Positions 25,997 through 49,301 of a DNA stretch of 64,000 nt are shown here, one piece after another (position 1 is the first letter of the stretch; each line of letters opens with the position of its first letter). The stretch is from the NCBI GenBank assembly GCA_046351535.1, contig JAXLYG010000005.1, positions 293,334 through 357,333 on the forward strand. Reading direction: 5' to 3'. The notes beneath the pieces are model-generated. The model did no database searches. It was not told the origin of the DNA and was given only the letters and a program-made list of their open reading frames with translations. The stretch comes from Polyangiales bacterium. Its GTDB lineage: Bacteria; Myxococcota_A; Polyangia; Polyangiales; Ga0077539. Both the position numbers and the translations under genes were made by a program.

Positions 25997-26103
25997 TGGG
26001 TATCACGACGACGCGTCGCGCGGGGCGATACGGCGATGCGGCGTGAGGTCGCCGCGCCCGCGTGCGGAGCGCCACGCGGCTGAGGTAGTCTCCGCGCCCT
26101 CGC

Positions 26104-33677: not shown

Positions 33678-33680
33678 GCC

Positions 33681-34562: not shown

Positions 34563-34837
34563 TCTCGTCGCCTCGCGCCGCGCGCGGGTCGTCTCGTGCG
34601 CTGTGCCCACGCGACGACGCGCAGTCCGCGCGGCCCCTACGCCCGACGTCGCCCATCTGACGCCCCATGGCGCACGCCATCCACGCACTGCGCGCGTGTA
34701 TGCACCGGGTTCGTTCGCGCTCGCGGTGCCTGCGCGATGTCATATCGCCATGAATCGGGCGTCTCGCGTGCGCAGCGGCGGGCGCGCTCGGCGCGCGGAG
34801 GTGTGGCGCGGGGAATGCTCAATGGGCCTCTTCGAGG

Positions 34838-36949
34838 ATGCAGATGACGGACGCACGACGTTGGGCGCTTGGGGTGATGCTCGTCGCGATGGTGGGATGC
34901 GGCGCGGACGGCGCTCCTGGCGAGCGCGGCCCTGCCGGTCCGGCCGGTGACGCTGGCGCGCAGGGGCCTCAGGGCGAGCGGGGCCCGCAGGGCGATCGCG
35001 GTCCGCAGGGCGAGCCCGGCGACGCGGCGGTGACCGTGGTGTCGGGGAGCTTCCCCGCCGCGGGGCTCACGCTGAACGTCCTCGACGCGACGGTGAGCGC
35101 CTCGGGCGCGGTGTCGGTGCACTTCAACCTCCGCGACGGGCGCTCGCAGGCCCTCACGCCGCGCGACACCGACCTCCTCGGCTTCATGGTGAGCGAGGTG
35201 GTGCTCGACGCGATGGGTCAGCCGCTGCGCTACCGCGCGCTCACGACCTGCCCCGCCGACGCGCCCCACGCCGACGTCCGTCAGTCGTGCATGGAGTGGG
35301 CGATGCGGAGCGGCGCGCTCGCGAGCGACCGCCTCACGCAGCGCGCGGACCTCTCGTGGGACTTCCGTCTCGCGACGGTGGTGCCCGCGTCGACGACGCC
35401 CACGCGCACGCTCTCGATCACCGCGCAGGGTCTCCGCCCCGGTCTGTATGCGTCGGACCCCGCCTCGGTCTCGACGGCGGTCTTCGACTTCGTGCCCGGC
35501 GGCGGCACGCCCGTCTCCGTTCGCGTGGTCGACCCCGCGGGCTGCGAGGGCTGCCACCAGACCGTGCGCGCGCACGGCGGCACCCGCGTCAACGCGACGA
35601 TGTGCGTCCGCTGCCACACCGACGAGCTCTCCGACCCCGACACCGGGAACAGCCTCAGCTTCGGCGTGATGGTTCACAAGATCCACCGCGGCGAGCACCT
35701 GCCGAGCGTCGTGGGCGGCGCGCCCTATCGCATCGTGGGGTACCGCGGCGCGGTCTCGGACTTCAGCGACGTCGCGTACCCGCAGGACCTCCGCAACTGC
35801 GAGTCGTGTCACCGCCCCACCACCGCGGCGCCGGACTCCGTTCGCTTCGCGCAGCGCCCCGCGGAGCGCATCTGCACGAGCTGCCACGACCGCACGTACT
35901 TCAGCGACGGCGCCTTGCCCACGGGCTACACGCGCCACCCGCCGGGGATGGTCGACCCGACGCAGTGCACGACCTGCCACCGCGAGACGGGCGGGCTCAG
36001 CGGCATCCGCGACAAGCACATGCTCCCGTGGCGTCGCCCCGGCGCGCCCACGATCGCGGCCACCATCGAGTCGGTGACGGGGCTCATCCCGAACACCGCG
36101 CCCACGGTGGAGTTCACCCTCCGCTCGCGTGAGGGCACGGCGATCACCGACCTCTCGGCGCTCTCTCGCCTGGGTTTTCTCATCAACGGCCCGACGGCGC
36201 CCGCGTACTCGCTGCCCGGCGTGGTGCTCCAGGCCACGGGGACCGCGGCGGTGGGCGTGACGACGAACCTCGGCGGCGGACGCTACCGCTGGGTGGCGCC
36301 CATGTCGGCCGCGCTGCCTGCGACCGCCTCGGGGACCTGGGCCATCGGCATCGAGGCGCAGCGCACCGAGACCCTCGCGGACATGACCACGTTCCGTCAC
36401 GGCGCGACCAACCCCGTCGCGTACTCGTCGGTGGCGGGCGGGCCCGTCGTGCGACGCCGTCAGGTCGTCGAGATCGCGCGCTGCAACAACTGCCACGGCC
36501 GCCTCGCGCTGCACGGGAACAATCGCATCGACAACCCCGAGTACTGCGTGATGTGCCACACGCCCACGGCGACCGACGTCTCGCAGCGTCCGTCGACGGC
36601 GGGCGCGCCGCAGAGCATCGACTTCGCGAACATGGTCCACCGGATCCACACGGGCGCGAACCTCCCGAGCGTGGCCGAGGGGCGGCCGTACGTGATCTAT
36701 GGCTTCGGCGGGTCGCGCAACGACTTCTCGAACGTGCGCTTCCCGCAGTCGCTCCTGAACTGCTCGGCGTGCCACGCCGACGGGACCACGACGACGCCCT
36801 CGGCGCGCGCCTGCACGGGCTGCCACGACAGCACCGCGACGATCGCGCACGCGCAGATCAACACCACCTCCGCGGGCGTCGAGTCCTGCGCGGCGTGCCA
36901 CGGCGCGGGGCGGACCTTCTCCGTCGCGACGTCGCACCCGGCGCCGTGA
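34838..36949 (+). CDS. Decaheme c-type cytochrome lipoprotein (703 aa) with N-terminal collagen-like Gly-X-Y repeat; paralog of 30753..33677
   Basis: Lipobox VGCGADG. (GPAGPAGDAGAQGPQGERGPQGDRGPQGEPGD) is 11 consecutive Gly-X-Y triplets. Ten CxxCH motifs. Shares the ...CxxCH...HKIH...LPSV... blocks with the upstream cytochrome. Confidence 0.85.
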   Translation: MQMTDARRWALGVMLVAMVGCGADGAPGERGPAGPAGDAGAQGPQGERGPQGDRGPQGEPGDAAVTVVSGSFPAAGLTLNVLDATVSASGAVSVHFNLRDGRSQALTPRDTDLLGFMVSEVVLDAMGQPLRYRALTTCPADAPHADVRQSCMEWAMRSGALASDRLTQRADLSWDFRLATVVPASTTPTRTLSITAQGLRPGLYASDPASVSTAVFDFVPGGGTPVSVRVVDPAGCEGCHQTVRAHGGTRVNATMCVRCHTDELSDPDTGNSLSFGVMVHKIHRGEHLPSVVGGAPYRIVGYRGAVSDFSDVAYPQDLRNCESCHRPTTAAPDSVRFAQRPAERICTSCHDRTYFSDGALPTGYTRHPPGMVDPTQCTTCHRETGGLSGIRDKHMLPWRRPGAPTIAATIESVTGLIPNTAPTVEFTLRSREGTAITDLSALSRLGFLINGPTAPAYSLPGVVLQATGTAAVGVTTNLGGGRYRWVAPMSAALPATASGTWAIGIEAQRTETLADMTTFRHGATNPVAYSSVAGGPVVRRRQVVEIARCNNCHGRLALHGNNRIDNPEYCVMCHTPTATDVSQRPSTAGAPQSIDFANMVHRIHTGANLPSVAEGRPYVIYGFGGSRNDFSNVRFPQSLLNCSACHADGTTTTPSARACTGCHDSTATIAHAQINTTSAGVESCAACHGAGRTFSVATSHPAP

Positions 36950-36960
36950 AGGGGGATGCC

Positions 36961-37503
36961 GTGACGGTCTTCACCACCCACGCGCGCGTCGCAGCGGTCC
37001 TCGCGCTCTCCCTCACGGGCTGCGCCGATCGGCCTCGCGAGATGCGTCCCCCGCCCGACGGGGGCGCGGTGACGGTGATGCCGCGCGTGCCTCACCTCGC
37101 GACGTACCCGTGCATGCAGCGCTGCCACAACGACCGCGCGCCGAACCCCACGCCGCGGGAGATGCGCGAGTTCCACACGGGCCGCGTGCTCCGTCACGGT
37201 CCGACGATTCGCAACTGCGACTTCTGCCACCCCTCGGGCGAGCTCGATCACCTGAGGCTCATCAACGGCGACGCGGTCTCGTTCAACGAGTCGTATCGCC
37301 TCTGCGGCCAGTGCCACGGCGAGAAGCTCCGCGACTGGGAGCACGGCGTCCACGGCTCGCAGTCGGGCTCGTGGGCGGGCGCGAGGCTCCGCCGCGCGTG
37401 CACGGTCTGCCACGACCCGCACGCGCCGCAGCGCCCGCAGTTCGACCCCATCCCGCCGCCGCAACGAGACCGCGCATTCCCCGCTGGAGGACATCACCCG
37501 TGA
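36961..37503 (+). CDS. Small tetraheme cytochrome c lipoprotein (NrfB/c3-like)
   Basis: Lipobox LSLTGCAD. Heme motifs CMQRCH (CX3CH), CDFCH, CGQCH, CTVCH. The GTG start was chosen after a GGGGGA RBS; 36946 is an alternative. Confidence 0.7.
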   Translation: MTVFTTHARVAAVLALSLTGCADRPREMRPPPDGGAVTVMPRVPHLATYPCMQRCHNDRAPNPTPREMREFHTGRVLRHGPTIRNCDFCHPSGELDHLRLINGDAVSFNESYRLCGQCHGEKLRDWEHGVHGSQSGSWAGARLRRACTVCHDPHAPQRPQFDPIPPPQRDRAFPAGGHHP

Positions 37504-38435
37504 GCGAGCACGACGACCCCGAGATCGTAGAGGCGCTCGAGCGAGCGAAGGTCACCCGGCGACGCTTTCTCGCCACCGTGGGCGCCGCCTCGGCCGCCGC
37601 CTGCGCGTCGGGATGCAGCGGCGGCGGCAGCGCCCGCTCCGCGGCCTGGGAGGAGTTCTTTCAGCAGCACTACAAGCGCCTCTCCGACGAGGACAAGCGC
37701 GCCATCTTCGCGCGCCTCGAGGAGAAGGTGCGGCGCAGCCACGGCGTGCGGGTGCACATCTCCGACCCCGCGCCGATGCAGGGCGTCGAGTACGGCTACG
37801 CGCTCAACCTCTCGGCCTGCGTGGGCTGCCGCCGCTGCGAGTACGCGTGCGTGGCGGAGAACAACCAGTCGCGCGATCCCGAGATCCACTACATCAAGAT
37901 CCTTCAGATGGAGAAGGGCTCGATGGACGTCGAGCGCTCGGAGACCCAGTACGAGGGGCCCGTGCCGAGCGAGGGGCACTTCTACATGCCCGTGCAGTGC
38001 CACCAGTGCCGCGAGGCGCCCTGCGTGAAGGCCTGCCCGGTGAACGCCACGTGGACCGAGCCCGACGGGATCACCGTCGTCGACTACAACTGGTGCATCG
38101 GGTGCCGCTACTGCGAGGCCGCGTGCCCGTACTTCGCGCGGCGCTTCAACTTCGCCGAGGGCGACATCAGGCCCTCGGAGATCAACCCCGACCAGGGCTA
38201 CCTCTCGAACCGGCTGAGGCCCGCGGGCGTGGTCGAGAAGTGCACCTTCTGTCTCCACCGCGTGCGGCGGGGAGAGTATCCGGCGTGCCTCGAGGCCTGT
38301 CCGACGGGGGCGCGCAAGTTCGGCAACCTCCTCGATCCGACGAGCGAGGTCCGCCAGGTCATCGACACGAAGCGCGTCTACGTGCTCCACGAAGAGGCCG
38401 GCACGCTGCCGCGCTTCTATTACTTCTTCGACTGA
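37500..38435 (+). CDS. Tat-exported 4x[4Fe-4S] ferredoxin-type subunit (NrfC/PsrB/HybA-like)
   Basis: Twin-arginine signal (TRRRFLATVGAA). Four Cys clusters (CVGCRRCEYAC...CP; CHQCREAPCVKACP; CIGCRYCEAACP; CTFC...CLEACP). GTG start overlaps the upstream stop. Confidence 0.8.
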   Translation: MSEHDDPEIVEALERAKVTRRRFLATVGAASAAACASGCSGGGSARSAAWEEFFQQHYKRLSDEDKRAIFARLEEKVRRSHGVRVHISDPAPMQGVEYGYALNLSACVGCRRCEYACVAENNQSRDPEIHYIKILQMEKGSMDVERSETQYEGPVPSEGHFYMPVQCHQCREAPCVKACPVNATWTEPDGITVVDYNWCIGCRYCEAACPYFARRFNFAEGDIRPSEINPDQGYLSNRLRPAGVVEKCTFCLHRVRRGEYPACLEACPTGARKFGNLLDPTSEVRQVIDTKRVYVLHEEAGTLPRFYYFFD

Positions 38436-38448
38436 GGGGAATGGCGCG

Positions 38449-39699
38449 ATGGGCTCGGTGGCGATGCACGTGCGTGAGCTGTTCGCGTTTGTGAAGGCCT
38501 CGGCGGTCGAGGTCGCGCGCGGCAGCCGCGGGTACTACCGCTGGCTGGCGTTCCTGACGGCGCTGGTGGTCCTCGGCGGCCTCGCGTGGGCGCAGCAGCT
38601 CATGCGCGGGATGACCGTCACGGCGATGACCGACCAGGTCCCGTGGGGGGCCTACATCGCGAACTTCTCGTTCACCGTGGGCCTCGCGTCCGCGGCGCTC
38701 GTGATGGTCGCGCTGGCGTACATCCGTCACGACGAGCGGGCCGCCGAGCTCGTCATCGTGGGGCAGGTGATGGCCATCGCCGCGCTCACGATGGGGATGC
38801 TCTTCGTCGTCGTCGACATCGGCCGCCCCGACCGCGCGTGGCACCTCATGCCGGGCCTCGGGCGCTTCAACTTCCCCATCTCGATGCTGTCGTGGGACGT
38901 GGTCGTCCTCAACGGCTACCTGCTGCTGAACTTCTACCTCGCGACGTACACCCTCCTCGCGCGCTTCCGCGGTAGGCCCATCGACAAGAAGAAGTATCGC
39001 CCCGTGCTCGGCGCCGCGATGGTGTGGGCCGTGTCGATCCACGTGGTCGCCGCGTTCCTCTACTGCGGCCTCGCGGGCAGGCCCCACTGGCACGCCGCGG
39101 TGCTCGCGCCTCGCGTCGTCGCCTCGGCCTTCGGCAGCGGCCCCGCGATGCTCATCATCGTGCTCACGGTCATCCGCGACCGCATGAACGCCCCCGTGCG
39201 CGACGAGACCATCGGGCTCCTCCGCGGGATCGTCACGGCGGCCGTGTACGCCAACCTCTTCCTCCTCGGCGCCGAGCTCTTCACCGAGCTCTACGGCGGC
39301 TCGGTGCACTCGGCGCCGCTGCGCTACCTGCTCTTCGGGCTCCACGGTCACCACCTGCTCGTGCCGTACATGTGGCTCTCGATCGTGCTCGATCTCTTCT
39401 CGGCGACGGTGTTCTCGCTGCCGGGCCTCTTCAACCGCAAGCGCGTGCTCCTCACCGCGTGCGGCACGACCATCGTCGGCATGTGGATCGAGAAGGGCAT
39501 GGGCCACGTCATCCCGGGCTTCATTCCGAGCTCCCTCGGCGAGATCGTCGAGTACAGCCCGTCGCTCACCGAGACGCTCGTCTGCGCGGGCGTGTGGGCC
39601 GCGGGCGGGCTCGTGCTCACCCTGATGCTCAAGGTCGCGATCCCCGTCGAGTTCCACGGGCTCCGCATCGATCGCCCCGAGGCGGGAGGTGCGTCGTGA
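38449..39699 (+). CDS. NrfD/PsrC-family integral membrane quinol-interacting subunit
   Basis: 416 aa with about 10 TM helices. Its size and position after an NrfC-like gene are typical of NrfD/PsrC/ActC. Confidence 0.75.
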   Translation: MGSVAMHVRELFAFVKASAVEVARGSRGYYRWLAFLTALVVLGGLAWAQQLMRGMTVTAMTDQVPWGAYIANFSFTVGLASAALVMVALAYIRHDERAAELVIVGQVMAIAALTMGMLFVVVDIGRPDRAWHLMPGLGRFNFPISMLSWDVVVLNGYLLLNFYLATYTLLARFRGRPIDKKKYRPVLGAAMVWAVSIHVVAAFLYCGLAGRPHWHAAVLAPRVVASAFGSGPAMLIIVLTVIRDRMNAPVRDETIGLLRGIVTAAVYANLFLLGAELFTELYGGSVHSAPLRYLLFGLHGHHLLVPYMWLSIVLDLFSATVFSLPGLFNRKRVLLTACGTTIVGMWIEKGMGHVIPGFIPSSLGEIVEYSPSLTETLVCAGVWAAGGLVLTLMLKVAIPVEFHGLRIDRPEAGGAS

Positions 39700-40346
39700 G
39701 GCGCTTCTTCTTCGGGCTCGCGCTCGCGGTCACCGCGTCGTGCCAGAGCCCCACGCCCACGACGAACGTCGGCGCCGACACGCTCGACCTCGGGCTCACG
39801 CCCGCGGGCGCGGTCTCGGGCGAGCTCGACGGCGCGCGCTTCACGCTGCGTGAGGCGTGGTTCCGCGTCGATCGCAGGGAGCCGCGCGCGCGCGTCGACC
39901 TCATCCTCTCGGAGGGGCGCGCCACACGGCTCTGCGCCACGTCCGATCCGCCGCACGCGCGGCACATCCTCGTGCGCGTCCCGCGCGCGCAGTCGCTCGC
40001 CGTGGGGACCCTGCGTGGCGCGCCGGGCGCCGAGACGCCGGTCTCCGCGAACTTCGAGACCCACGCGTCGGACCACTGGGTCGGGCGACCCGGGAGCGTC
40101 GCCATCGCGATCGACACCTCGACGCCGACGCTCGTCACCGGGCGCATCCGCGCGTGCTTCGGCCCCGGCGCAGAGGGCTGCGTGGCGGGCGCCTTTCAGG
40201 CTCGTCAGTGCGTGACCGAGCTCGACCTCGACGGCCCGCTCACCGGGAACGTGCGCCCCTCGACGGACGACGCGGGCGCGCCCGCCGCCGCCCCCGCCGC
40301 AGGACACGCAGTGCCGCCGACCGAGCACGGAGGCGCGTCGCCGTGA
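39696..40346 (+). CDS. Lipoprotein of unknown function, within the cytochrome operon
   Basis: GTG start after a GGGAGG RBS, overlapping the upstream stop. Lipobox VTASCQS. Confidence 0.5.
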   Translation: MRRFFFGLALAVTASCQSPTPTTNVGADTLDLGLTPAGAVSGELDGARFTLREAWFRVDRREPRARVDLILSEGRATRLCATSDPPHARHILVRVPRAQSLAVGTLRGAPGAETPVSANFETHASDHWVGRPGSVAIAIDTSTPTLVTGRIRACFGPGAEGCVAGAFQARQCVTELDLDGPLTGNVRPSTDDAGAPAAAPAAGHAVPPTEHGGASP

Positions 40347-41926
40347 AGTCTCCAAGGCGTGAGAGAGGGGCTTCGAAGGGCGCTGCCGCGGCGCGCGTCG
40401 CGGGCGTCCTCGCGCTCACGTTGCAGGGCTGCGCCGACGTGCGCGAGACCCCCACGGTCGCCACGCCCGACTGGGAGCTCGACCTGCGCCCCGCGCTCAC
40501 CGCCGCCTGCGCCCGCTGCCACGACGGCGACACCCCCGCGGGTGACTGGGCCGTCAGCCGCTACACCGACGCCGTCTCGTGCTTCGAATCGCTCGACGGC
40601 GGCGTGGGCGTGAGCGTCGCCAATCGACTACGTCGCGCGCTCGGTCGCGACGACCACGCGTCGTACTTCAACGCCGCGCTCCGACGCAGCATCGACGCGT
40701 GGATCACTGGAGGCGCGAGGCCCCGCCGCGGATCGATGCACGAGGGCGGCTTCGTCGACCCGCGCTCCCCGTACTTTCACGGCCGACTGCTCCGCGCGTC
40801 TCGCTGGGCGCAGATGCTCGACGGCACCCGTCAGGACGCCTGCGGACGCTGTCACGACGGCACGCCCTCGCGTCCGAGCACCGTGCGAGAGGGCGCTCCC
40901 GCGGCGGGCGCGACGCCCTGCACCGCGTGTCACACCGCGACCGCGGGCGTGCTCGACTGCTCGACCTGCCACGGCGAGGGCGGACGCGTCTGGCCCGGAC
41001 CGACCTGCCGCATGCTCCCCGCCACGCACGGCGACGCGCACGCGCGACACGTGCTCCCGGGCGCGGCGCTGCTTCAGCCCCTCGCGTGCGCGACCTGTCA
41101 CCCCGCGCGCGACACCAACCTCGCGACGGGCTCGCACGGCGACGGCACCATCGACGTCCGCTTCGACACCGCGATCGTCGGCGCCACGGCGCGCTACGAC
41201 GCGGCCAGCGGGTCGTGCACCGTCTCGTGCCACAGCGCCGACGCGATGAGCCCCACGCCGCACTGGCGCACGCCGTCGTCGGGCCCCACCTGCGCGGGCT
41301 GTCACGGCGCCCCCCCGGCGGGCCACTGGACGCAGCCCTGCACCACCTGTCACTTCGAAGCCAACGCGACGGGTACCGCGCTCGCGCGCGCCGCGCTGCA
41401 CCTCAACGGCCGCGTCGACTTCGGCGACGGCACCAACAACTGCGGCTCGTGCCACGGCAGCAACGGCGACCCGTGGCCGCGCGACGCGACCCACCAGGCC
41501 CACCGCAACGCCAGCGTCACCACGCCGGTGACCTGCGACGAGTGCCACGAGGTCCCCGCCACGATCACCGCCGCGGGGCACCTCGACGATCGCGGCGCGG
41601 GCGACCTGCGCTTCGGCGCGAGGGCGACCGCGCGCGGCGCGAGGCCGTCGTACGTGAGCGGCTCGTGCGTCTCGGTCGCGTGTCACGGCGAGAACCTCAT
41701 CGGGCGCTCCGGCGTGCGCATCGCGTGGCGCGGCGGCTCCGTTGCGGGCAACTGCGTCGGATGTCACGGCGCGCCGCCCGCGCTGCCCCACTCGAACAAC
41801 GGCTCGTGTGAGCTCGTGCTGTGTCACGGCTCCGAGGTCGAGCGCGTCGACGGCGCGCTGCGGATCATCGCGTCTCAGCGCGCCTCGCACATCAACGGCG
41901 TCGTGACCGCGGGGGGTGCGCGATGA
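40343..41926 (+). CDS. 13-heme c-type cytochrome lipoprotein of the Geobacter CX(3-4)CH...CXXCH type
   Basis: Lipobox LTLQGCAD. Ten CxxCH motifs plus CTVSCH (CX3CH), CVSVACH and CELVLCH (CX4CH). GTGA overlap with the upstream gene. Confidence 0.8.
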   Translation: MKSPRRERGASKGAAAARVAGVLALTLQGCADVRETPTVATPDWELDLRPALTAACARCHDGDTPAGDWAVSRYTDAVSCFESLDGGVGVSVANRLRRALGRDDHASYFNAALRRSIDAWITGGARPRRGSMHEGGFVDPRSPYFHGRLLRASRWAQMLDGTRQDACGRCHDGTPSRPSTVREGAPAAGATPCTACHTATAGVLDCSTCHGEGGRVWPGPTCRMLPATHGDAHARHVLPGAALLQPLACATCHPARDTNLATGSHGDGTIDVRFDTAIVGATARYDAASGSCTVSCHSADAMSPTPHWRTPSSGPTCAGCHGAPPAGHWTQPCTTCHFEANATGTALARAALHLNGRVDFGDGTNNCGSCHGSNGDPWPRDATHQAHRNASVTTPVTCDECHEVPATITAAGHLDDRGAGDLRFGARATARGARPSYVSGSCVSVACHGENLIGRSGVRIAWRGGSVAGNCVGCHGAPPALPHSNNGSCELVLCHGSEVERVDGALRIIASQRASHINGVVTAGGAR

Positions 41927-43260
41927 GGCCCGCCGTCGTCATCGTGGCGCTCGTGCTCGTCGTCGAGCGCGGCGACGCCCTCGCGCAGTCGCACGCCGAG
42001 TCGCGCGACGAGTCGCACGTCAGCGTGCGCATCGACAGCGTGTTCCGCGGCGTCCCGCGCTACGTGCTCACCGCGGCCGACGGGCAGGCGAGCGCCGCCG
42101 ACCGATACTGGCGCACCGTCACGCTCGCGCCGATCATGGCGCGCGCAACGCTCGACGCGCGCGGGCTCTCGAACGGTCACCTCGAGGCGCACCTCAACGC
42201 CTGGGGCGCCGTCGACCTCGCCGCGGCGGACCCGCAGGCGTACGCGGCGGGCGACCTCGCCGTCGCGTGGGCGCGCTACGCGGCGGGGCCGTGGGGCGTG
42301 TGGGCCGGGCGACGCTTTCTCCCCTGGGGCTCGCCCGGCGGCGTGCACATCGACGGGATCGGCGGAGAGGTCATCGCGGGCGGCTTCAACGCCGAGGTGA
42401 TGGTCGGACGCCCCGTGACCCCCGCGTACGGCGCGCTGGTCGGCGCGCAGCCCTCGTTCGACGGCGTGACCGTGGCCTACGGCGCGCGCGTCGGGTGGAT
42501 GCAGGCTGGCACCTTCGCGGCCTCGGCGTCGTACCTCGAGCGCTGGGCCTACGGCGTCGCGGGCGTGCGCGCCCTCTCGCTCGACGCGTCGTTCACGCCG
42601 ACGGAGCGCCTCGACCTCCGCGCGGGGATCGCCTTCGACGCGGCCGGCGGCGGCGTCACGCAGGCGAGCGCCGACGTCGACTGGACGCCGGCGTCGTGGG
42701 GGCTCGTCGGCGCGGGCTACGCGCACGTCGACCCGTCGAGGCTCATCCCGAAATGGTCGATCTTGAGCGTGTTCGCGACGCAGGTCTTCGATGAGATGAG
42801 GGCGTCGTTCACGTGGCGTCCCTCGCGCGTGGTGTCGCTGCGCCTCGAGGGCGCCGGGCAGCGCTATGACATCCCCGGTTCGAACGAGGACGCGCGCTGG
42901 GGCTCCCGCGTCGAGGCGATGCTGCGGGTGACCTCTCGCGATCGCTCGCGGCAGGGGACGCTCTCGGCGAGCCGCCGCGATGACGGCGTGCGACCGCTCA
43001 CGCTCGTGCGCATCGCGGGCATGTGGACGCTGCCTCGCAACATCGGGGTCGCGCTCGAAGGCGCCGCGGCGCTCGACGACGACGACCCGAGCTCGCCGCG
43101 CACGTCGCTCTACGCGCGCGCCGCGGTCGACGTCCCCCTCGGACACGGCTGGCGCGTCGGCGCCGCCATCGACGGCGTGCGGTCGCCCATCGCGCTCAGC
43201 GAGCTGCGCGGGCTCGCCCACGGGACCTGGACCTTCGAGAGCCGCGGAGGCGCGCGATGA
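41923..43260 (+). CDS. Putative outer-membrane beta-barrel (porin-like) protein embedded between cytochrome genes
   Basis: Signal peptide (VALVLVVERGDALAQS). Gly/Ala/aromatic-rich with an alternating amphipathic pattern. No heme motif. ATGA overlaps on both sides. Its position matches Pcc-type porin genes. Confidence 0.45.
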   Translation: MRPAVVIVALVLVVERGDALAQSHAESRDESHVSVRIDSVFRGVPRYVLTAADGQASAADRYWRTVTLAPIMARATLDARGLSNGHLEAHLNAWGAVDLAAADPQAYAAGDLAVAWARYAAGPWGVWAGRRFLPWGSPGGVHIDGIGGEVIAGGFNAEVMVGRPVTPAYGALVGAQPSFDGVTVAYGARVGWMQAGTFAASASYLERWAYGVAGVRALSLDASFTPTERLDLRAGIAFDAAGGGVTQASADVDWTPASWGLVGAGYAHVDPSRLIPKWSILSVFATQVFDEMRASFTWRPSRVVSLRLEGAGQRYDIPGSNEDARWGSRVEAMLRVTSRDRSRQGTLSASRRDDGVRPLTLVRIAGMWTLPRNIGVALEGAAALDDDDPSSPRTSLYARAAVDVPLGHGWRVGAAIDGVRSPIALSELRGLAHGTWTFESRGGAR

Positions 43261-44321
43261 GCCGCCTCTTCGTCGTCCTCGCCGCGCTCCTCTTCGCCGT
43301 GAGCTGTCAGCGCGGAGACACCGAGCGGGTGCGCCCCGACGCGATCCGCTTCTCGCACGGCAAGCACCTGCGCGCGGGCGCGACGTGCCCGCAGTGCCAC
43401 GCGCGCGTCGTCGACCCCGCCGCGGACACCGCCCGCACGCGCAACCTCGCGCTCCCCGCGGAGGCGGTATGCACGGGCTGCCACACGCGCCCCGAGGAGC
43501 GCGCGTGCGCCTACTGCCACGCCGAGCCGCGCAACCCTCGCACGTACCTCCGCACCGACCGCGAGCTCAACTTCTCGCACGCGACGCACGTCGCCCGCGA
43601 GCGCGGCGGCTGCGTGTCGTGCCACGGCCTGCGCGCCGACACGTCGACGGTGCGGCCCTTCGAGCCCGAGATCCCGACGATGGCCGGGTGCGCCACGCGC
43701 TGCCACGACGCGGACATGCGCGCGATGAACTGCACCAAGTGTCACCGCAGCCTCGACCGCTACAGCATGGAGGACCTCGCCTTCGTGCGGCACCCCGCGG
43801 GCTTCGCGCGGCGACACGGGACGCAGGCGCGCGCCGAGAGCAACCTCTGCTCGCAGTGTCACGAGCCCAACTTCTGCGCGCGGTGCCACAACCCGAGCGC
43901 GGGCGCGCCGCTGGCCGACCTGGAGCTCATGTCGGTCGCGCGAGATTTCGTGCACCGCGGTGACTTCCAGGCGAGGCACGCCGACGAGGCGCGGCTCACG
44001 CAGAACACCTGCACGCGCTGCCACGCCGTCGAGACCTGCGACGGGTGCCACCGCACGAGCGGCATCGGCGGAGGCGTCGGCCCGAGGGCCACGCACCCCG
44101 TCGGCTGGCTCGACCCCAACTCGCCGCGCAGCCACGCGCGTGAGGCGCGGCGGAACATCCTCGCGTGCGCGTCGTGTCACGAGACCGACGCCGCGCAGGT
44201 CTGCACGCCCTGCCACCGCGAGGGCGGCGGCGCGGGCAACCCCCACCCGCCCGGATTCGCGGCGGGCTTCGATCGAACGCAGCACTCGGTCTGCCTCGTG
44301 TGCCATACACACGCGCCTTGA
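43257..44321 (+). CDS. 13-heme c-type cytochrome lipoprotein
   Basis: Lipobox LFAVSCQR. Twelve CxxCH motifs plus CATRCH (CX3CH). ATGA overlap with the upstream gene. Confidence 0.85.
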   Translation: MSRLFVVLAALLFAVSCQRGDTERVRPDAIRFSHGKHLRAGATCPQCHARVVDPAADTARTRNLALPAEAVCTGCHTRPEERACAYCHAEPRNPRTYLRTDRELNFSHATHVARERGGCVSCHGLRADTSTVRPFEPEIPTMAGCATRCHDADMRAMNCTKCHRSLDRYSMEDLAFVRHPAGFARRHGTQARAESNLCSQCHEPNFCARCHNPSAGAPLADLELMSVARDFVHRGDFQARHADEARLTQNTCTRCHAVETCDGCHRTSGIGGGVGPRATHPVGWLDPNSPRSHAREARRNILACASCHETDAAQVCTPCHREGGGAGNPHPPGFAAGFDRTQHSVCLVCHTHAP

Positions 44322-44346
44322 GACTCCGACGGAGACGTGACTTCCG

Positions 44347-44802
44347 ATGAGCGATCAACAGCGACCCCCGGACCCGAAGCGTCGAAGGCTCCTCGACGGC
44401 GCGCTCGTGGTCGCCTCCTGCGCGGCGGGCGTGTCGGCGGCGTTGCCCGCCGTGCGCTTCGCCACACCCCCGTCGGATGGGGCGACGGGAGCCTCCGCGT
44501 CGGTGCGCCGCACTGAGGTGCTCGCCGCGGGGTCGAAGCTCGTCGAGGTCGCGGGCGACGTGGTGCTCGTGGTCGCGGTGGGCGGCGAGCTCCGCGCCTT
44601 CTCCGCGCGCTGCACGCACCTCGGGTGCACGGTGCGCTACGCCCGCGCCACGGGCGAGATCGAGTGTCCGTGTCACGGCGGCCGCTTCGCCGTCGACGGG
44701 CGGGTGATCGCGGGGCCGCCTCCCGCGCCGCTCCACGAGTACGAGGTGACCGTCGCGGGCGACGACGTCGTGATCGAACGGAGGCGCGCATGGACCGGGT
44801 GA
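44347..44802 (+). CDS. Rieske [2Fe-2S] protein with Tat signal
   Basis: RRRLLDGALVVA twin-arginine signal. CTHLGC ... CPCHGG Rieske boxes. Confidence 0.9.
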   Translation: MSDQQRPPDPKRRRLLDGALVVASCAAGVSAALPAVRFATPPSDGATGASASVRRTEVLAAGSKLVEVAGDVVLVVAVGGELRAFSARCTHLGCTVRYARATGEIECPCHGGRFAVDGRVIAGPPPAPLHEYEVTVAGDDVVIERRRAWTG

Positions 44803-45815
44803 ACCCCACCGACTCGCTCGCGTCGCGCTACCCCACCGACGCCCTGCGGCTCCGCCTCACGGAGGCCCGCGTCGACGGCTCGCGCATGGCGCTGACGCTC
44901 CTGGCCGCGCTCTCCGCGGCGCTCGTCGCCGTCGAGTTCGCGACGGGCGCGCTGCTCGCGCTCTACTACCGCCCCGAGCGCGAGGGCGCCCGCGCGTCGG
45001 TGCAGTTCATCATCTCGCGCGTGGAGTTCGGCGAGCTCGTCCGATCGATCCACGTGTGGGGCTCGCACGCGCTGCTCGCGTCGCTCTTCGCGCTCGTGGG
45101 CGTGGCGCTCTTCGCGGGCGTCCACCGCCGACCGGGCGAGGTCGCCTGGTGCGCGCTGGTCACGGCGTGGTTCCTCGGGCTCGCGTCGGCCTTCACGGGC
45201 GCGATGCTCCCGTGGACGGCGCGCAGCGCGCTCGACGCGACGCTCGCCTCGGAGGCCACGTCGCGGCTGCCGATCCTCGGACCGGGCCTCCGCGCGATCG
45301 TGTTCGGCGCGCCGTCGCAGGGCGTCGACCTCGTGCGCGCGCAGGGGATCCACCTCGGCGCGCTCCCGTCGCTCTGGGGCATCGTGCTGCTCGTGGCGGT
45401 GTTCCACGCGCTCGGTCGCCTCGTGCAGGAGCCGCCGCGCGAGGGGACGCGGGTCTTCCCCGACGTCATGTTCCGCGCCGCGGCCCTCAGCGTCACGGCC
45501 TTCGGCGCCCTCCTCGCGCTCGCCTCGTGGAGGCCCGCGGGCCTCGCCGAGGCGCCGTCGCCCACGCACGCGCTCACGGGCGACCTCCGCCCGACCTGGT
45601 ACCTCGCGCCCATCGACGGTCTGCTCCGCGCCGCGCCGCCTACGATCGTAGGCATCCCCGGCGTGACCGTGCTGGTCTCGCTCGCCGCGGTGGGGGCGCT
45701 CGCCGCGCTCTCGCTGCCCCTCGTCGACCGTGGAGGCGGACGCCTCGGTCAGCGGATCGGACTCGCGCTGTATGCGCTCCTGCTGGGGGTGATGACCTTT
45801 GCGCTCCTTCGCTGA
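44790..45815 (+). CDS. Cytochrome b (bc/b6f-type, fused N- and C-terminal domains)
   Basis: ALYYRPERE...IHVWGSHALLASLF matches the His-ligand helix pattern. About 8 TM helices. Start overlaps the Rieske stop by 13 nt. Confidence 0.75.
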   Translation: MDRVNPTDSLASRYPTDALRLRLTEARVDGSRMALTLLAALSAALVAVEFATGALLALYYRPEREGARASVQFIISRVEFGELVRSIHVWGSHALLASLFALVGVALFAGVHRRPGEVAWCALVTAWFLGLASAFTGAMLPWTARSALDATLASEATSRLPILGPGLRAIVFGAPSQGVDLVRAQGIHLGALPSLWGIVLLVAVFHALGRLVQEPPREGTRVFPDVMFRAAALSVTAFGALLALASWRPAGLAEAPSPTHALTGDLRPTWYLAPIDGLLRAAPPTIVGIPGVTVLVSLAAVGALAALSLPLVDRGGGRLGQRIGLALYALLLGVMTFALLR

Positions 45816-47031
45816 CATCGCCCTCGCGCTCGCGGTCGCGCTCGCATCGACGGCCGTCGCCGCCGAGGAGCACTGCGGCCAGTGCCACGCCACCCTCCGC
45901 GAGGCGCGCCTGCGCACGCCCGCCGAGGCCCTTCGAGAGAGCGTCCACGACGCGCCTCGCGTGGGCTGCTCGGGCTGCCACGGCGGTCGCGCCTCGGAGG
46001 CCACCACGGCCGCCCACGACGCCGCCGCGGGCTTCGTCGCGCGCCCCGACCTCGCCGTCACCTCCGAGCGCTGCGGCGCCTGCCACGCCGACGCGCGCTT
46101 CATCCGCCGCGCGAGCGCGACGCTCCAGGTCGATCAGCTCGCGCTCTTTCGCGCCGACGCGCACGGCCACGCCGTCGCCGACGGCCGCGTGCGCGCGCCC
46201 TCGTGCGCCTCGTGTCACGGCGCCCACGACATCCGTCACGTCGCCGACCCCTCGTCGCCCGTAAACCCGCTGCACGTCGCAGAGACCTGCGGACGCTGCC
46301 ACGAAGGACCCACCGCGATCCGCGGCGCGCGCCCCGCGAACGAGCCTCCCTCCGCGTGGAGGGCGAGCGTCCACGGCCGGGCGCGCGTCGAGCGCGGCGA
46401 CGAGAACGCCCCCACCTGCGCGAGCTGCCACGGCGCGCACGGCGAGTTCCGCGAAGCGGGCGGACCCGACGCGCGCTGCGGGAGCTGTCACCGCGACGAG
46501 GCCGAGGCCTTCACGCGCAGCCCCCACGCGGCGCCCTTCGCGCGCCTCGGCTTCTCGGGGTGCGTGCAGTGCCACGGGTCGCACGGCGTCGGCGAGGCCG
46601 GCGGCGCGCTCCTCGGGAGCGGCTCGAGCAACGTCTGCGGTCGTTGCCACGACGGCGCGCAGAAGGCCCTCGAGACGGCCTCACGCCTCGACGCCGCCCG
46701 CGCCGGCGCGCTCCGCGCCGTCGACGAAGCGGCGGACCTCATGCGCCGCGCCGATCGCGCGGGGCTCTCGATTCCAGAAGGCGCTTCGAAGCTCGAAGAG
46801 GCCCGCGCGGCGCAGCAGCGCCTCGACGTGGCCCTCCACACGCTCGACGAGCGCGTGGTCGCGGGCGCGGTGCGCGAGGTGACGAGCGCCGCGACGGCCT
46901 CGCAGCGCGCGGCGCGCCGGACCCTCGGCCTCCGTGACCGTCAGCGTCGGGCGTGGCTCCCCGTGGTGGGCCTGCTCTTCGCGCTCGGAGCCCTGCTGGC
47001 GCTCCGCTCTCGCAACGGGGGCGACCGGTGA
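45799..47031 (+). CDS. Nonaheme c-type cytochrome with signal peptide and C-terminal TM anchor
   Basis: Nine CxxCH motifs. C-terminal WLPVVGLLFALGALLAL. A TTG start is inferred because there is no in-frame ATG; it overlaps cytochrome b by 17 nt. Confidence 0.75.
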   Translation: MRSFADIALALAVALASTAVAAEEHCGQCHATLREARLRTPAEALRESVHDAPRVGCSGCHGGRASEATTAAHDAAAGFVARPDLAVTSERCGACHADARFIRRASATLQVDQLALFRADAHGHAVADGRVRAPSCASCHGAHDIRHVADPSSPVNPLHVAETCGRCHEGPTAIRGARPANEPPSAWRASVHGRARVERGDENAPTCASCHGAHGEFREAGGPDARCGSCHRDEAEAFTRSPHAAPFARLGFSGCVQCHGSHGVGEAGGALLGSGSSNVCGRCHDGAQKALETASRLDAARAGALRAVDEAADLMRRADRAGLSIPEGASKLEEARAAQQRLDVALHTLDERVVAGAVREVTSAATASQRAARRTLGLRDRQRRAWLPVVGLLFALGALLALRSRNGGDR

Positions 47032-49301
47032 ACGAGGAGCCGTCGACCGCGCGCGCACGCCCGAGGCTGCGTCCGTCATGGGGCGTCCTCGCGGCCGTGG
47101 CGCTCGCGCTCGTGGCGCTCTTCGCGGGCGCCGAGCGCGCCACCCGCTCGGATGACTTCTGCGCGTCGTGCCACGCGAGCTCGCGCGCGCACCTCCGCGG
47201 TCATCAGGGCACCCGCTGCGACGCGTGCCACGCCGCGAAGACCGCGGAGCGCCTCGGGCTCCTCGCGCGCTCGATCACGCACACCGCCGCGAGCCGCCAC
47301 CACGCCGCCGTCGACCCGACGACCTGCGTCTCGTGCCACCAGGACCGCGCGGGCTCGTGGCGCAGGCTGATGTCGACCGAGGGGCACGCGTCGCACACGA
47401 CGGGCGCGCGCAAGACCGACTGCGTGCGCTGCCACGGGCCCTCGCTCCACGACAAGCCCGACCCCGGCGCGCGCTGCGTCGCGTGTCACGCGAGCACGCC
47501 CATGCGCTCCGAGCCGCGCGACGAGGGCTCGTGCGTGCGCTGCCACGCCTTCGGCGCGCGCCCCGCGGCGCTCGCCCGCCAGGTGCCCTCGGCCCACGGG
47601 CCCCGCGTCGACGGATCGCGCATCCACGGCGCCGTCGACTGCCGGAGCTGCCACGACCCGCACCGCGACACCAACGACCGCGGCACGCACGACGGCAACG
47701 ACTGCGTGCGCTGCCACCGCGGGAGCATCGCGTCCGAGGTGGCCGCCGGGCCGCGCGGTCACCGCGAGTGCCTCGGGTGTCACTCCGCGCACGCCGAGAG
47801 AGGCCGCGCGGGCATCGACTGCGGACGCTGCCACGAGCCGCCTCCGCCGCGCTCGACGCACCAGGCGGAGCCGTCGCGCAGGCAGCCCGCGGCCCGGGTG
47901 ACGCCGTGGGTGACCTTCGCGTCTGGAACGACCACCGCGGTCCCCGACGCGCGCACCCCCAACGCCCCCACCGCGCGCCCCGCGCACACCGACTGGACGC
48001 TCACGGGCGTCTGCTCGACCTGCCACCGCCCGCACACGTGGACGGCGCACACCGACGACTGCCGCACGTGCCACGCCGGCCCCTCGACGTCGCTCCCGCG
48101 CGACGGTCGAGGCCACAACGAGTGCGTCGGCTGCCACGACCCGCACGCGCCCGTCCCCAACGCAGACACCTGCGCGACGTGCCACCAGAACATCGCGGCC
48201 GCGACCCATCAGGCGCCGCCCACGCCGCACCAGGACTGCCTCTCGTGTCACGCGCAGCACGACCCGCGGCGCCCCACGGCGTCGACGTGCGAGCACTGCC
48301 ACGCAGCGCCCACGGCGGGCGTCGCGCACGGCCCCGACGAGCACCGCAACTGCCTGTCGTGCCACGAGCAGCACGGTCCGCCCGCGGCCAACGCCGAGCG
48401 CTGCGCGCGCTGCCACGCGGCCGAGGTGTCGTCGACCGCGACGCGCGCGACGTCGCTCTCGGGCGTGCACCAGCGCTGCGAGAGCTGCCACACGCCGCAC
48501 GAGTTCGAACGCGCCAACGCGCGGACCGCGTGCGTCCACTGCCACGAGCGCGCCGCCGCGCCCACGTCGAACCACCGCGGGACGTGTACGCAGTGCCACG
48601 CGCCCCACGCGAACATCAACGCCCGCGGGACCGACTGCGCGACGTGCCACGCGGGCGTCCGCGCGGTGGGCTCGGAGCGTCCCGGCTCGGCGCACGCGCG
48701 CTGTCAGTCGTGTCACACGCCGCACACGGCCGCGCGCGGCGCCCTCCAGCGGTGCCCGACGTGTCACGCGCGGCAGGTCTCCGTCGCGCGCACGTGGCCC
48801 GCGGAGTCTCCGCACGCGGGCCGCTGCGAGTCGTGCCACGACATGCACGGACCGACGCCGCGGGTGGCCTGCGCGAGCTGCCACGCGCCGCAGAACAACG
48901 CGTCGCACATGGGACGCCACACCGACTGCGTGGGCTGCCACGCGCCGCACCAGGACCGCCCCTCCGGCGGCGCCTCGGCGTGGTGGAACCGCTGCGCCAC
49001 CTGCCACACGCAGCAGGCGACCGCGGCGCAGACCGGCGCCGTCGCGCACCGGGCGTGTTCGAACTGCCACCAGCGCCCGGGCTTGCGGGCGCCGACCTGC
49101 GCGACCTGCCACGCCCAGGCCGCGGGCACGCTGCTCCACGGTCACCCCGCGCACGCCAACTGCGCCGGGTGCCACCCCCCGCACGGCACTGGAATCCCCG
49201 AGCGGGCGCAGTGCGTCGCGTGTCACCAGAACCGGGCGCAGCACTTCCCCGATGCGCCGCGTTGCCAGTCGTGCCATCCCTTCGGCACGCAGGGACGATG
49301 A
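47028..49301 (+). CDS. Giant (~33-heme) c-type cytochrome with N-terminal signal-anchor
   Basis: 33 CxxCH motifs counted across 757 aa, almost all in a C-x2-CH-x(8-20)-H periodicity. N-terminal VLAAVALALVALFAGA. GTGA overlap with the upstream gene. Confidence 0.85.
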   Translation: MNEEPSTARARPRLRPSWGVLAAVALALVALFAGAERATRSDDFCASCHASSRAHLRGHQGTRCDACHAAKTAERLGLLARSITHTAASRHHAAVDPTTCVSCHQDRAGSWRRLMSTEGHASHTTGARKTDCVRCHGPSLHDKPDPGARCVACHASTPMRSEPRDEGSCVRCHAFGARPAALARQVPSAHGPRVDGSRIHGAVDCRSCHDPHRDTNDRGTHDGNDCVRCHRGSIASEVAAGPRGHRECLGCHSAHAERGRAGIDCGRCHEPPPPRSTHQAEPSRRQPAARVTPWVTFASGTTTAVPDARTPNAPTARPAHTDWTLTGVCSTCHRPHTWTAHTDDCRTCHAGPSTSLPRDGRGHNECVGCHDPHAPVPNADTCATCHQNIAAATHQAPPTPHQDCLSCHAQHDPRRPTASTCEHCHAAPTAGVAHGPDEHRNCLSCHEQHGPPAANAERCARCHAAEVSSTATRATSLSGVHQRCESCHTPHEFERANARTACVHCHERAAAPTSNHRGTCTQCHAPHANINARGTDCATCHAGVRAVGSERPGSAHARCQSCHTPHTAARGALQRCPTCHARQVSVARTWPAESPHAGRCESCHDMHGPTPRVACASCHAPQNNASHMGRHTDCVGCHAPHQDRPSGGASAWWNRCATCHTQQATAAQTGAVAHRACSNCHQRPGLRAPTCATCHAQAAGTLLHGHPAHANCAGCHPPHGTGIPERAQCVACHQNRAQHFPDAPRCQSCHPFGTQGR

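What the first reader, a model, noticed from the sequence alone, without database searches (positions are those of the whole stretch)
47028..49301. A roughly 33-heme c-type cytochrome, membrane-anchored
I count 33 CxxCH motifs in 757 residues, about one heme per 23 aa. They come with a regular distal His spacing and an N-terminal signal-anchor. That would rank it among the largest multiheme cytochromes known. The regular C-x2-CH-x(10-20)-H periodicity suggests a heme-wire built from repeated His/His-ligated units.
Basis: seen in the sequence. Interest (0 to 1): 0.7.

Follow-up and report, generated by a model that had tools for sequence, protein, structure and literature searches.

The report
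Conserved 33-heme membrane-anchored cytochrome wire
The gene really does encode a cytochrome with 33 heme sites; it belongs to an unnamed but conserved family in uncultured myxobacteria that sits beside a quinol-oxidising membrane complex and probably carries electrons across the periplasm, though it is far from the largest such protein on record.

Summary
The count is confirmed. Window 47028-49301 (+) is one intact 757-aa ORF with 33 CxxCH motifs that use all 66 cysteines.

About 40 homologue clusters share its length, down to 27% identity, and keep every heme site. Nearly all come from uncultured Myxococcota. 33 non-motif histidines are conserved, 29 of them strongly, which fits bis-His ligation throughout.

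The N-terminus (TM helix plus hemes 1-2) is homologous to the NrfH/NapC quinol-dehydrogenase anchor. The rest is built of roughly 38-aa di-heme repeats whose nearest solved relative is the decaheme wire MtrA. The layout is 10 hemes, a variable Pro-rich linker, then 23 hemes.

It is the last gene of a 14-gene cluster: two OmcA/MtrC-like decahemes, NrfCD, a predicted 22-strand outer-membrane barrel, further multiheme cytochromes, Rieske, cytochrome b and a 9-heme C-terminally anchored cytochrome. The 9-heme/33-heme pair is almost always kept. It follows Rieske/cyt b in 18 loci and pairs with NrfCD in about 10.

Best reading: an inner-membrane-anchored periplasmic heme cable linking quinol oxidation to an outer-membrane conduit. 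This function is inferred, not shown.

"Among the largest known" is wrong, since related database proteins carry 101-131 motifs. I rate it a new variant of a known kind, of moderate interest.

The parts
47028..49301 (+). 33-heme c-type cytochrome gene (757 aa; GTG start overlapping the upstream stop)
47076..47135 (+). N-terminal hydrophobic helix (about residues 17-36), a probable uncleaved signal-anchor
   Evidence: uncharged stretch of 16-28 aa in every family member; AF2 helix 16-40; aligned with the NrfH TM helix
47028..47246 (+). NrfH/NapC-like head: TM helix plus hemes 1 and 2 (residues 1-73)
47160..47834 (+). N-terminal 10-heme module (residues 45-269)
   Evidence: weak DmsE-family match
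47835..48011 (+). Pro-rich linker with no heme site (residues 270-328); its length varies (38-97 aa between hemes 10 and 11) within the window's clade
   Evidence: AF2 pLDDT below 50 for residues 248-315
48012..49298 (+). C-terminal 23-heme module of roughly 38-aa di-heme repeats (CxxCH-x11-17-H-x2-3-CxxCH-x-P-H); this is the part shared with 23-27-heme relatives
45799..47031 (+). 9-heme cytochrome (410 aa) with a signal peptide and a C-terminal TM helix; the near-constant upstream partner gene
44790..45815 (+). Cytochrome b (b6 plus subunit-IV-like, about 8 TM helices); lacks the canonical second helix-B His
44347..44802 (+). Rieske 2Fe-2S protein (CTHLGC ... CPCHGG)
43257..44321 (+). 12-heme cytochrome with a lipoprotein-type signal (c7-like domains)
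41923..43260 (+). Predicted 22-strand outer-membrane beta-barrel (no Pfam family)
   Evidence: AF2 pLDDT 81, pTM 0.72; Foldseek hits to usher pores, Occ porins and BtuB
40343..41926 (+). Lipoprotein multiheme cytochrome with the Geobacter-type CxxxxCH/CxxCH domain (10 CxxCH plus variant motifs)
39696..40346 (+). Small lipoprotein of unknown family, co-conserved in the cluster
38449..39699 (+). NrfD/DsrP-like integral membrane quinone-interacting subunit
37500..38435 (+). NrfC/DsrO-like 4Fe-4S protein with a TAT signal
36961..37503 (+). Small lipoprotein cytochrome (3 CxxCH plus 1 Cx3CH)
34838..36949 (+). OmcA/MtrC-family decaheme lipoprotein with an N-terminal collagen-like repeat
   Evidence: TIGR03507, 349.9 bits against a cutoff of 209.3
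33678..34562 (+). PpiC-type peptidyl-prolyl isomerase
30753..33677 (+). Second OmcA-like decaheme lipoprotein; first gene of the cluster

Best explanation
The ORF encodes a genuine, conserved 33-heme c-type cytochrome from an uncultured Polyangiales (Myxococcota) bacterium.

Anatomy, shown directly:
- An N-terminal helix plus the first hemes, homologous to the membrane anchor of NrfH/NapC-type quinol dehydrogenases.
- Then di-heme repeats of the MtrA type, arranged as 10 hemes, a variable Pro-rich linker and 23 hemes. All appear to be bis-His ligated, so this is an electron-transfer protein and not a catalytic one.

Context, shown directly:
- It is the last gene of a 14-gene cluster.
- It is almost always preceded by a 9-heme cytochrome with a C-terminal membrane helix, which is the topology of cytochrome c1 or f.
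- In most genomes a Rieske protein and cytochrome b come before that pair. In other lineages an NrfCD module replaces them.
- The wider cluster adds a predicted outer-membrane barrel, a 12-heme cytochrome and lipoprotein cytochromes of the OmcA/MtrC type.

Mechanism, inferred:
- Quinol is oxidised in the inner membrane by the Rieske/cyt b module (and/or NrfCD).
- Electrons pass through the 9-heme subunit into the anchored 33-heme chain.
- At MtrA-like heme density that chain would be about 25-30 nm long, enough to cross the periplasm.
- It hands electrons to the barrel-cytochrome conduit and the surface decahemes, for extracellular electron transfer. The flow could also run in the opposite direction.
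For: - Heme count and conservation.
- The Rieske / cyt b / ~410-aa cytochrome / 33-heme module is conserved in the window plus 17 loci, at identities down to 26-36% and including a 50%-GC organism.
- About 10 loci instead carry NrfC and NrfD around the same pair.
- The neighbouring 445-aa protein is predicted as a 22-strand barrel.
- An OmcA/MtrC-family decaheme scores above its curated cutoff.
- Relatives with 23-27 hemes match only the C-terminal module and occupy the same place in the cluster. One such cluster has a separate NapC/NirT gene.
- Length scale from the literature: MtrA, with 10 hemes, measures about 100 A, and low aa-per-heme ratios are read as wire-like (PMC5566968). The periplasm is about 170 A wide (PMC11492766).
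Against: - No experiment exists: every homologue comes from a MAG or a metagenome.
- The full-length AF2 model is only moderate (pLDDT 68.8, pTM 0.35).
- The window's clade has lost one heme between hemes 6 and 7 and carries a 38-97-aa heme-free linker after heme 10. Either could interrupt the chain.
- The barrel and surface cytochromes are missing from the neighbourhood in some loci (L001, L003, L083).
- The cluster's cytochrome b lacks the canonical second helix-B histidine in this clade, so a normal Q cycle is doubtful.
- Rieske centres are usually more positive than bis-His multihemes, so outward flow is not obviously favourable. This rests on general knowledge.
- The N-terminal AGA|E sequence could be a signal-peptidase site.
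Confidence: 0.55

Rival explanations
1. The protein is itself a CymA/NrfH-type quinol dehydrogenase with a very long output wire. Quinol would be oxidised at its own membrane-proximal heme 1, and the neighbouring Rieske/cyt b would be a parallel module and not its donor.
For: The N-terminal profile matches NrfH at E 6.3e-13 across the TM helix, heme 1 (FCxSCH) and heme 2. About 10 loci keep the protein without Rieske/cyt b. The most divergent members, P0035 and P0036, retain the NrfH CxxCHxM signature.
Against: The window protein and most of its family read CASCHAS and lack the Met of CxxCHxM. The window protein does not reach Pfam Cytochrom_NNT even at E 0.1. P0035, which does keep the Met, still sits behind Rieske/cyt b. 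Every locus variant keeps some other quinol-interacting module next to it.
Confidence: 0.2
2. The architecture is the same but the flow is inward. The cluster would take electrons from an extracellular donor such as Fe(II), Mn(II), reduced humics or a partner or prey cell. The 33-heme chain would deliver them to the Rieske/cyt b module or onward to oxidases.
For: Rieske/cyt b complexes feature in iron-oxidiser electron chains, and PCC3-type clusters with large periplasmic cytochromes were proposed for Fe(II) oxidation (PMC5566968). Multiheme chains are reversible, which is general knowledge. Nothing in the sequence fixes the direction.
Against: OmcA/MtrC-type surface decahemes and the Geobacter-type CxxxxCH lipoprotein cytochrome are best known from metal reducers. 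No Cyc2 or MtoA marker was seen in the window.
Confidence: 0.25
3. It is a periplasmic electron store (a capacitor) that buffers respiration when acceptors are scarce, and not a directional wire.
For: It has 33 low-spin sites in one polypeptide, and the cluster holds at least 77 hemes. The flexible linker is not needed for a rigid wire.
Against: The strict conservation of heme number, order and spacing, and the membrane anchoring beside quinol modules, fit a defined pathway better than bulk storage. The two roles are not mutually exclusive.
Confidence: 0.1
4. The N-terminal helix is a cleaved signal peptide, and the mature protein is soluble or secreted, for example as an extracellular heme filament.
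For: An A-G-A|E motif follows the hydrophobic stretch. The divergent homologue P0044 has a lipoprotein signal instead of the anchor.
Against: The hydrophobic stretch is 16-28 residues long (mostly 18-23) in all members and is followed by Arg/Lys, with no conserved AxA. The region aligns with the uncleaved NrfH anchor.
Confidence: 0.12
5. It is an assembly or annotation artefact: a frameshifted fusion of two genes, or a spurious high-GC ORF.
For: None found.
Against: The product is identical in NCBI. An independent MAG carries a copy at 94% identity. About 40 clusters of the same length have 32-34 hemes. GC3 is 94% in frame.
Confidence: 0.01

Closest known systems
MtrA/DmsE decaheme cytochromes (Shewanella MtrCAB, PDB 6R2Q chain A)
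   Different: This protein has 33 hemes against 10 and 757 aa against about 330. It is membrane-anchored, not soluble or porin-inserted. It scores 29 bits against the 192-bit family cutoff of TIGR03508. It is not adjacent to an MtrB-family porin.
NrfH / NapC / CymA tetraheme quinol dehydrogenases
   Different: Those proteins have 4 hemes and about 160-200 aa. The window protein lacks the CxxCHxM methionine and does not reach Pfam PF03264. Only hemes 1-2 align convincingly.
Geobacter extHIJKLMNOPQS (Cbc6) cluster
   Same: A porin-like protein, 10- and 12-heme cytochromes, a Rieske protein (ExtO) and a cytochrome b (ExtP) in one cluster (PMC5877670). The window's cytochrome b matches the ExtP model best, at 93 bits, which is below the cutoff.
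   Different: The gene order differs. There is no 33-heme or NrfH-anchored cytochrome. None of the window's cytochromes matched any Ext-named NCBIfam model.
PCC3 porin-cytochrome clusters of iron oxidisers (He et al. 2017, PMC5566968)
   Same: The concept is the same: a porin plus an extracellular cytochrome plus a very heme-rich, low-complexity, repeat-built periplasmic cytochrome (median 21 hemes) proposed to bridge the two membranes.
   Different: PCC3 uses a 5-TM di-heme-b-like inner-membrane protein, not Rieske/cyt b or NrfCD. It is found in Proteobacteria. Homology to PCC3 components was not tested here.
GSU1996 dodecaheme 'nanowire' (PDB 3OV0) and HmcA 16-heme cytochrome
   Same: Polymers of small c7/c3-type heme domains forming linear chains. 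They are the second- and third-best solved matches (E 1.3e-20 and about 1e-19).
   Different: They are soluble periplasmic proteins with 12 or 16 hemes and a different repeat unit (triheme c7 or tetraheme c3). They have no anchor.

Membership tests
c-type multiheme cytochromes | Multiple CxxCH heme-attachment motifs conserved among homologues | tested here: met
   33 motifs, all invariant or at least 90% conserved in 34 homologues
c-type multiheme cytochromes | Export signal, because heme attachment takes place outside the cytoplasm | tested here: met
   N-terminal hydrophobic helix in all members
c-type multiheme cytochromes | Covalently bound heme in the expressed protein | not testable with these tools
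   Needs heme staining or mass spectrometry
MtrA/DmsE decaheme family (TIGR03508) | Score above the curated family cutoff (192.2 bits) | tested here: not met
   29.2 bits, E 6e-7
MtrA/DmsE decaheme family (TIGR03508) | Ten hemes in a soluble periplasmic protein of about 300-350 aa, encoded next to an MtrB-type porin | tested here: not met
   33 hemes, 757 aa, anchored. The cluster's barrel lies four genes upstream and has no Pfam family
NapC/NirT/NrfH family (PF03264) | N-terminal TM helix followed directly by heme 1 and heme 2, homologous to NrfH | tested here: met
   Family N-terminal profile against 2j7a_C, E 6.3e-13, query positions 3-67 to NrfH 7-73
NapC/NirT/NrfH family (PF03264) | Match to the Pfam Cytochrom_NNT model | tested here: not met
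   No hit for the window protein at E <= 0.1; 5 of 34 relatives hit, best E 2.4e-5
NapC/NirT/NrfH family (PF03264) | CxxCHxM at heme 1 (the NrfH-type Met ligand at the quinol site) | tested here: not met
   The window protein reads CASCHAS; only P0035 and P0036 keep the Met
NapC/NirT/NrfH family (PF03264) | Quinol dehydrogenase activity | not testable with these tools
   Biochemical assay needed
Cytochrome subunit or partner of a Rieske/cytochrome b complex | Conserved gene adjacency with Rieske and cytochrome b | tested here: met
   The window plus 17 loci show Rieske, cyt b, a ~410-aa cytochrome and the 33-heme cytochrome in that order. About 10 loci lack Rieske/cyt b, so the link is frequent but not obligatory
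Cytochrome subunit or partner of a Rieske/cytochrome b complex | Physical association and electron transfer from the Rieske centre | not testable with these tools
   Needs co-purification, complex modelling or kinetics
Porin-cytochrome extracellular electron-transfer conduits | An outer-membrane beta-barrel encoded together with periplasmic and lipoprotein multiheme cytochromes | tested here: met
   22-strand barrel model, pTM 0.72. Flanking 12-heme and 10-heme lipoprotein cytochromes and OmcA/MtrC decahemes. Co-conserved in most Myxococcota loci
Porin-cytochrome extracellular electron-transfer conduits | The 33-heme protein contacts or enters the barrel | not tested
   No complex prediction was available. 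The barrel is absent near the gene in L001, L003 and L083
Paired_CXXCH_1 (PF09699) doubled-CxxCH repeat | Match to the Pfam model | tested here: inconclusive
   29 of 34 relatives hit (best E 2.2e-18), but the window protein itself does not at E <= 0.1. The pattern is visible by eye

The most novel reading that the evidence does not exclude
A single polypeptide hard-wires the inner membrane to the outer membrane. The NrfH-like head would sit beside the Rieske/cyt b or NrfCD quinol site. The 33-heme chain would cross the whole periplasm. Its MtrA-like C-terminal end would plug into the 22-strand barrel. This would replace the soluble periplasmic shuttles used by Shewanella and Geobacter with one covalently anchored cable, driven by a Rieske/cyt b complex whose n-side heme ligand has been lost.
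Probability: 0.2. Interest if true: 0.75.

Novelty: new variant of a known kind. Interest (0 to 1): 0.5.

Why it matters
How electrons cross the 15-25 nm periplasm is a weak point in models of extracellular electron transfer. The studied organisms use diffusing small cytochromes. Membrane-spanning "cables" have been proposed only from genomics, as with PCC3.

This family offers a sharply defined candidate. It has a fixed number of 33-34 hemes. Its anchor is homologous to that of quinol dehydrogenases, and its body is homologous to MtrA. It shows conserved genetic coupling to a Rieske/cytochrome b (or NrfCD) module and to a barrel-cytochrome set.

It also points to extracellular electron-transfer capacity in uncultured Polyangiales and Sandaracinaceae, groups usually regarded as aerobic predators and degraders.

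None of this makes it a record-size cytochrome. The function remains an inference.

Tried and rejected
- The search for related loci with the 34-sequence alignment failed because no stretch was conserved enough. It worked with a 9-sequence alignment.
- Literature searches found no description of this family. 'multiheme cytochrome' + Rieske + Myxococcota returned 0 papers. '33 heme' returned only irrelevant hits. The bc-complex and multiheme searches found nothing either.
- The 9-heme partner has no significant solved relative.
- No sigma-70-like promoter or intrinsic terminator was found downstream of the gene.
- Membership of the DmsE/MtrA family was considered and rejected, because the score is far below the cutoff and the architecture differs.
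- HmcA membership was rejected as well: 15.8 bits against a cutoff of 400.
- The frameshift or two-gene explanation was rejected.
- I could not measure the heme-chain length or continuity, because model coordinates are not exposed and hemes are not modelled.
Full report
**Observation**

Window 47028-49301 (+) translates without interruption into 757 residues. A script finds exactly 33 CxxCH motifs. All 66 cysteines lie in those motifs. There are 78 histidines and four internal methionines. Third-position GC is 94% in this frame, against 72% GC for the window.

The GTG start overlaps the stop of the upstream gene (GTGA), the usual sign of translational coupling. The identical 757-aa product is already in NCBI as a hypothetical protein of a Polyangiales MAG (P0001). 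A 94%-identical full-length copy exists in a second MAG (L004).

**A conserved family**

The word-indexed search returned about 40 clusters of 700-830 aa covering 92-100% of the query, down to 27-30% identity. Almost all have 32-34 heme motifs and an N-terminal hydrophobic helix. The exhaustive profile search of 1.84 billion representatives gave roughly 40 full-length single-stretch matches. Among new matches of 680-840 aa, 18 have 33 motifs, 11 have 34 and 6 have 32.

In a 34-sequence alignment every one of the 33 sites is invariant or at least 90% conserved. Besides the motif histidines, 29 histidines are conserved at 80% or more and 4 at 50-80%. No methionine or lysine is conserved. That makes 33 candidate distal ligands for 33 hemes, which fits bis-His ligation throughout and a pure electron-transfer role.

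Genome hits are all MAGs. They are labelled Polyangiales, Sandaracinaceae, uncultured 'Myxococcaceae', Kofleriaceae or 'Deltaproteobacteria'. One divergent member lies in a 50%-GC contig (L003).

**Anatomy**

- Spacing. From heme 7 onward the spacing alternates at about 17 and 21 residues. The repeat is CxxCH-x11-17-H-x2-3-CxxCH-x-P-H, about 38 aa with two hemes. Pfam calls this the doubled-CxxCH motif, and 29 of 34 relatives hit that model.
- Anchor. The uncharged N-terminal stretch is 16-28 residues in every member and is followed by Arg/Lys. I read it as an uncleaved anchor, although an AGA|E site leaves cleavage possible.
- Missing NrfH signature. The window protein lacks the NrfH CxxCHxM methionine. 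Only the most divergent members keep it.
- Linker. Hemes 10 and 11 are separated by a Pro-rich, low-confidence linker whose length varies from 38 to 97 aa in the window's clade. The 34-heme clade has short spacing there and an extra heme between reference hemes 6 and 7.
- Shorter relatives. Proteins with 23-27 hemes align end-to-end with the C-terminal module only (residues 329-757). The 33-heme form therefore looks like an NrfH-anchored 10-heme module joined to a pre-existing 23-heme wire.

**Context**

The gene closes a 14-gene, same-strand cluster (30753-49301). In order it contains:

1. an OmcA-like decaheme;
2. a PpiC isomerase;
3. an OmcA/MtrC-family decaheme (TIGR03507, 350 bits, above its cutoff) with a collagen-like N-terminus;
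4. a small cytochrome;
5. NrfC/DsrO-like and NrfD/DsrP-like subunits;
6. a lipoprotein;
7. a Geobacter-type CxxxxCH cytochrome;
8. a 445-aa protein with no Pfam family;
9. a 12-heme cytochrome;
10. Rieske and cytochrome b;
11. a 9-heme cytochrome with a signal peptide and a C-terminal TM helix;
12. the 33-heme gene.

The unannotated 445-aa protein folds (pLDDT 81, pTM 0.72) as a 22-strand beta-barrel resembling usher pores, Occ porins and BtuB.

Across fetched loci, the order Rieske, cyt b, ~410-aa cytochrome, 33-heme cytochrome recurs in the window and in 17 other loci. These include homologues at 26-36% identity with otherwise unrelated neighbours (L001, L003, L083). About ten loci, from Sandaracinaceae and others, lack Rieske/cyt b. 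They keep the ~410-aa/33-heme pair, with NrfC upstream and NrfD immediately downstream. The near-constant unit is therefore the two anchored cytochromes, and they are always beside a quinol-interacting module.

**Mechanism (inferred)**

The 9-heme protein has the topology of cytochrome c1 or f, with a C-terminal anchor, and is the natural acceptor of the Rieske centre. The 33-heme protein is anchored by the opposite end and built like three MtrA units in series. It is best read as the output cable.

MtrA's ten hemes span about 100 A (cited in PMC5566968), and the periplasm is about 170 A wide (PMC11492766). An extended 33-heme chain could therefore reach the outer-membrane barrel-cytochrome set and the OmcA/MtrC-like surface decahemes.

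Several things remain open:

- the direction of flow;
- whether the NrfH-like head oxidises quinol itself;
- whether the linker breaks the chain;
- whether the C-terminus enters the barrel.

A further oddity concerns the cluster's cytochrome b. It keeps the first helix-B histidine and both helix-D histidines. It lacks the canonical second helix-B histidine, the n-side heme ligand, throughout the window's clade. Distant orthologues keep it. A standard Q cycle is therefore questionable here.

**Comparison with what is known**

The protein works like a fusion of a CymA/NrfH-type anchor with an MtrA-type wire. It is a member of neither family by their own criteria:

- 29 bits against a 192-bit cutoff for the DmsE/MtrA model;
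- no PF03264 hit;
- no CxxCHxM.

The nearest described gene clusters are Geobacter extHIJKLMNOPQS, which has Rieske/cyt b plus 10- and 12-heme cytochromes plus a porin (PMC5877670), and the PCC3 clusters, whose heme-rich periplasmic cytochromes were proposed to bridge the membranes (PMC5566968). I found no paper describing this family or this coupling. NCBIfam and Pfam offer only generic cytochrome domains.

**Size claim**

The claim that 33 hemes would rank among the largest known does not hold. The same profile search returns proteins with 131, 129, 120, 118 and 101 CxxCH motifs. The literature lists 53- and 69-heme proteins (PMC11492766), more than 100 motifs in Bacteroidota (PMC11495043) and a median of 34 for PCC3 extracellular cytochromes (PMC5566968). 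It is, however, about twice the largest chain with a solved structure that matched here, the 16-heme HmcA.

**Verdict**

This is a real, conserved and so far unnamed 33-heme cytochrome. It is a new variant of known kinds, combining an NrfH-like anchor, an MtrA-like wire and Rieske/cyt b or NrfCD coupling. A plausible periplasm-bridging role is inferred, not shown. Interest is moderate at 0.5. I give about 0.95 confidence that it is a genuine conserved 33-heme cytochrome, and about 0.55 for the proposed function.

Noticed in passing
window 44790-45815 (+): The cluster's cytochrome b lacks the canonical second helix-B histidine (the n-side heme bH/bn ligand, 14 residues after the first). This holds for the window protein and its whole Polyangiales/'Myxococcaceae' clade. 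Distant orthologues (L001, L003, L083) keep it. The clade often has His about 24 residues downstream instead (HRRPHE). The n-side heme may be missing or ligated differently.
   Followed up: partly
loci L032-L082 (for example L033 7785-9851, L048 7959-9944): A cytochrome of about 670 aa with exactly 26 CxxCH motifs recurs in about 45 species-level MAGs from many phyla, including Nitrospirota, Ignavibacteria, Zixibacteria, Thermodesulfovibrionales, Acidobacteriota, Fibrobacterota and Rokubacteria. It is 22-29% identical to the window protein. The tblastn matches run about 3.1 kb, so a second cytochrome gene probably follows.
   Followed up: no
proteins P0217, P0198, P0208, P0215, P0234: Giant predicted cytochromes of the same repeat type: 131 CxxCH in 3592 aa, 129 in 3274 aa, 120 in 3949 aa, 118 in 5264 aa and 101 in 4309 aa.
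   Followed up: no
window 34838-36949 (+); also L084 8949-10772: The OmcA/MtrC-family decaheme lipoprotein carries a collagen-like Gly-X-Y repeat directly after its lipobox. The same collagen plus MtrC-domain combination appears in a distant locus.
   Followed up: no
window 41923-43260 (+): A 445-aa protein with no Pfam or NCBIfam family is predicted with good confidence (pTM 0.72) as a 22-strand outer-membrane beta-barrel. It has 37 homologue clusters, all unnamed and without Pfam domains, and the few with a taxon label are Polyangiales or Deltaproteobacteria MAGs. It is co-conserved with the cytochrome cluster.
   Followed up: yes
window 47028-49301, residues 174-204 and 270-328: Compared with the 34-heme clade, the window's clade has lost one heme site between hemes 6 and 7. 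It has also gained a longer linker of variable length after heme 10. These are the two regions of lowest AF2 confidence.
   Followed up: partly
L085 6909-7547: In a complete 6-Mb MAG chromosome, a 23-heme relative sits in a cluster that encodes a separate 212-aa NapC/NirT-type cytochrome. This fits the 33-heme form having arisen by adding such a head to the wire.
   Followed up: partly
window 26089-27195 (+): A bacterial protein combines a TFIIB-type zinc ribbon with a scramblase-family domain (Pfam Scramblase, E 5.9e-37).
   Followed up: no
window 33678-34562 (+): A PpiC-type peptidyl-prolyl isomerase gene lies between the two OmcA-like decaheme genes. It may be a dedicated folding factor for the secreted cytochromes.
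   Followed up: no
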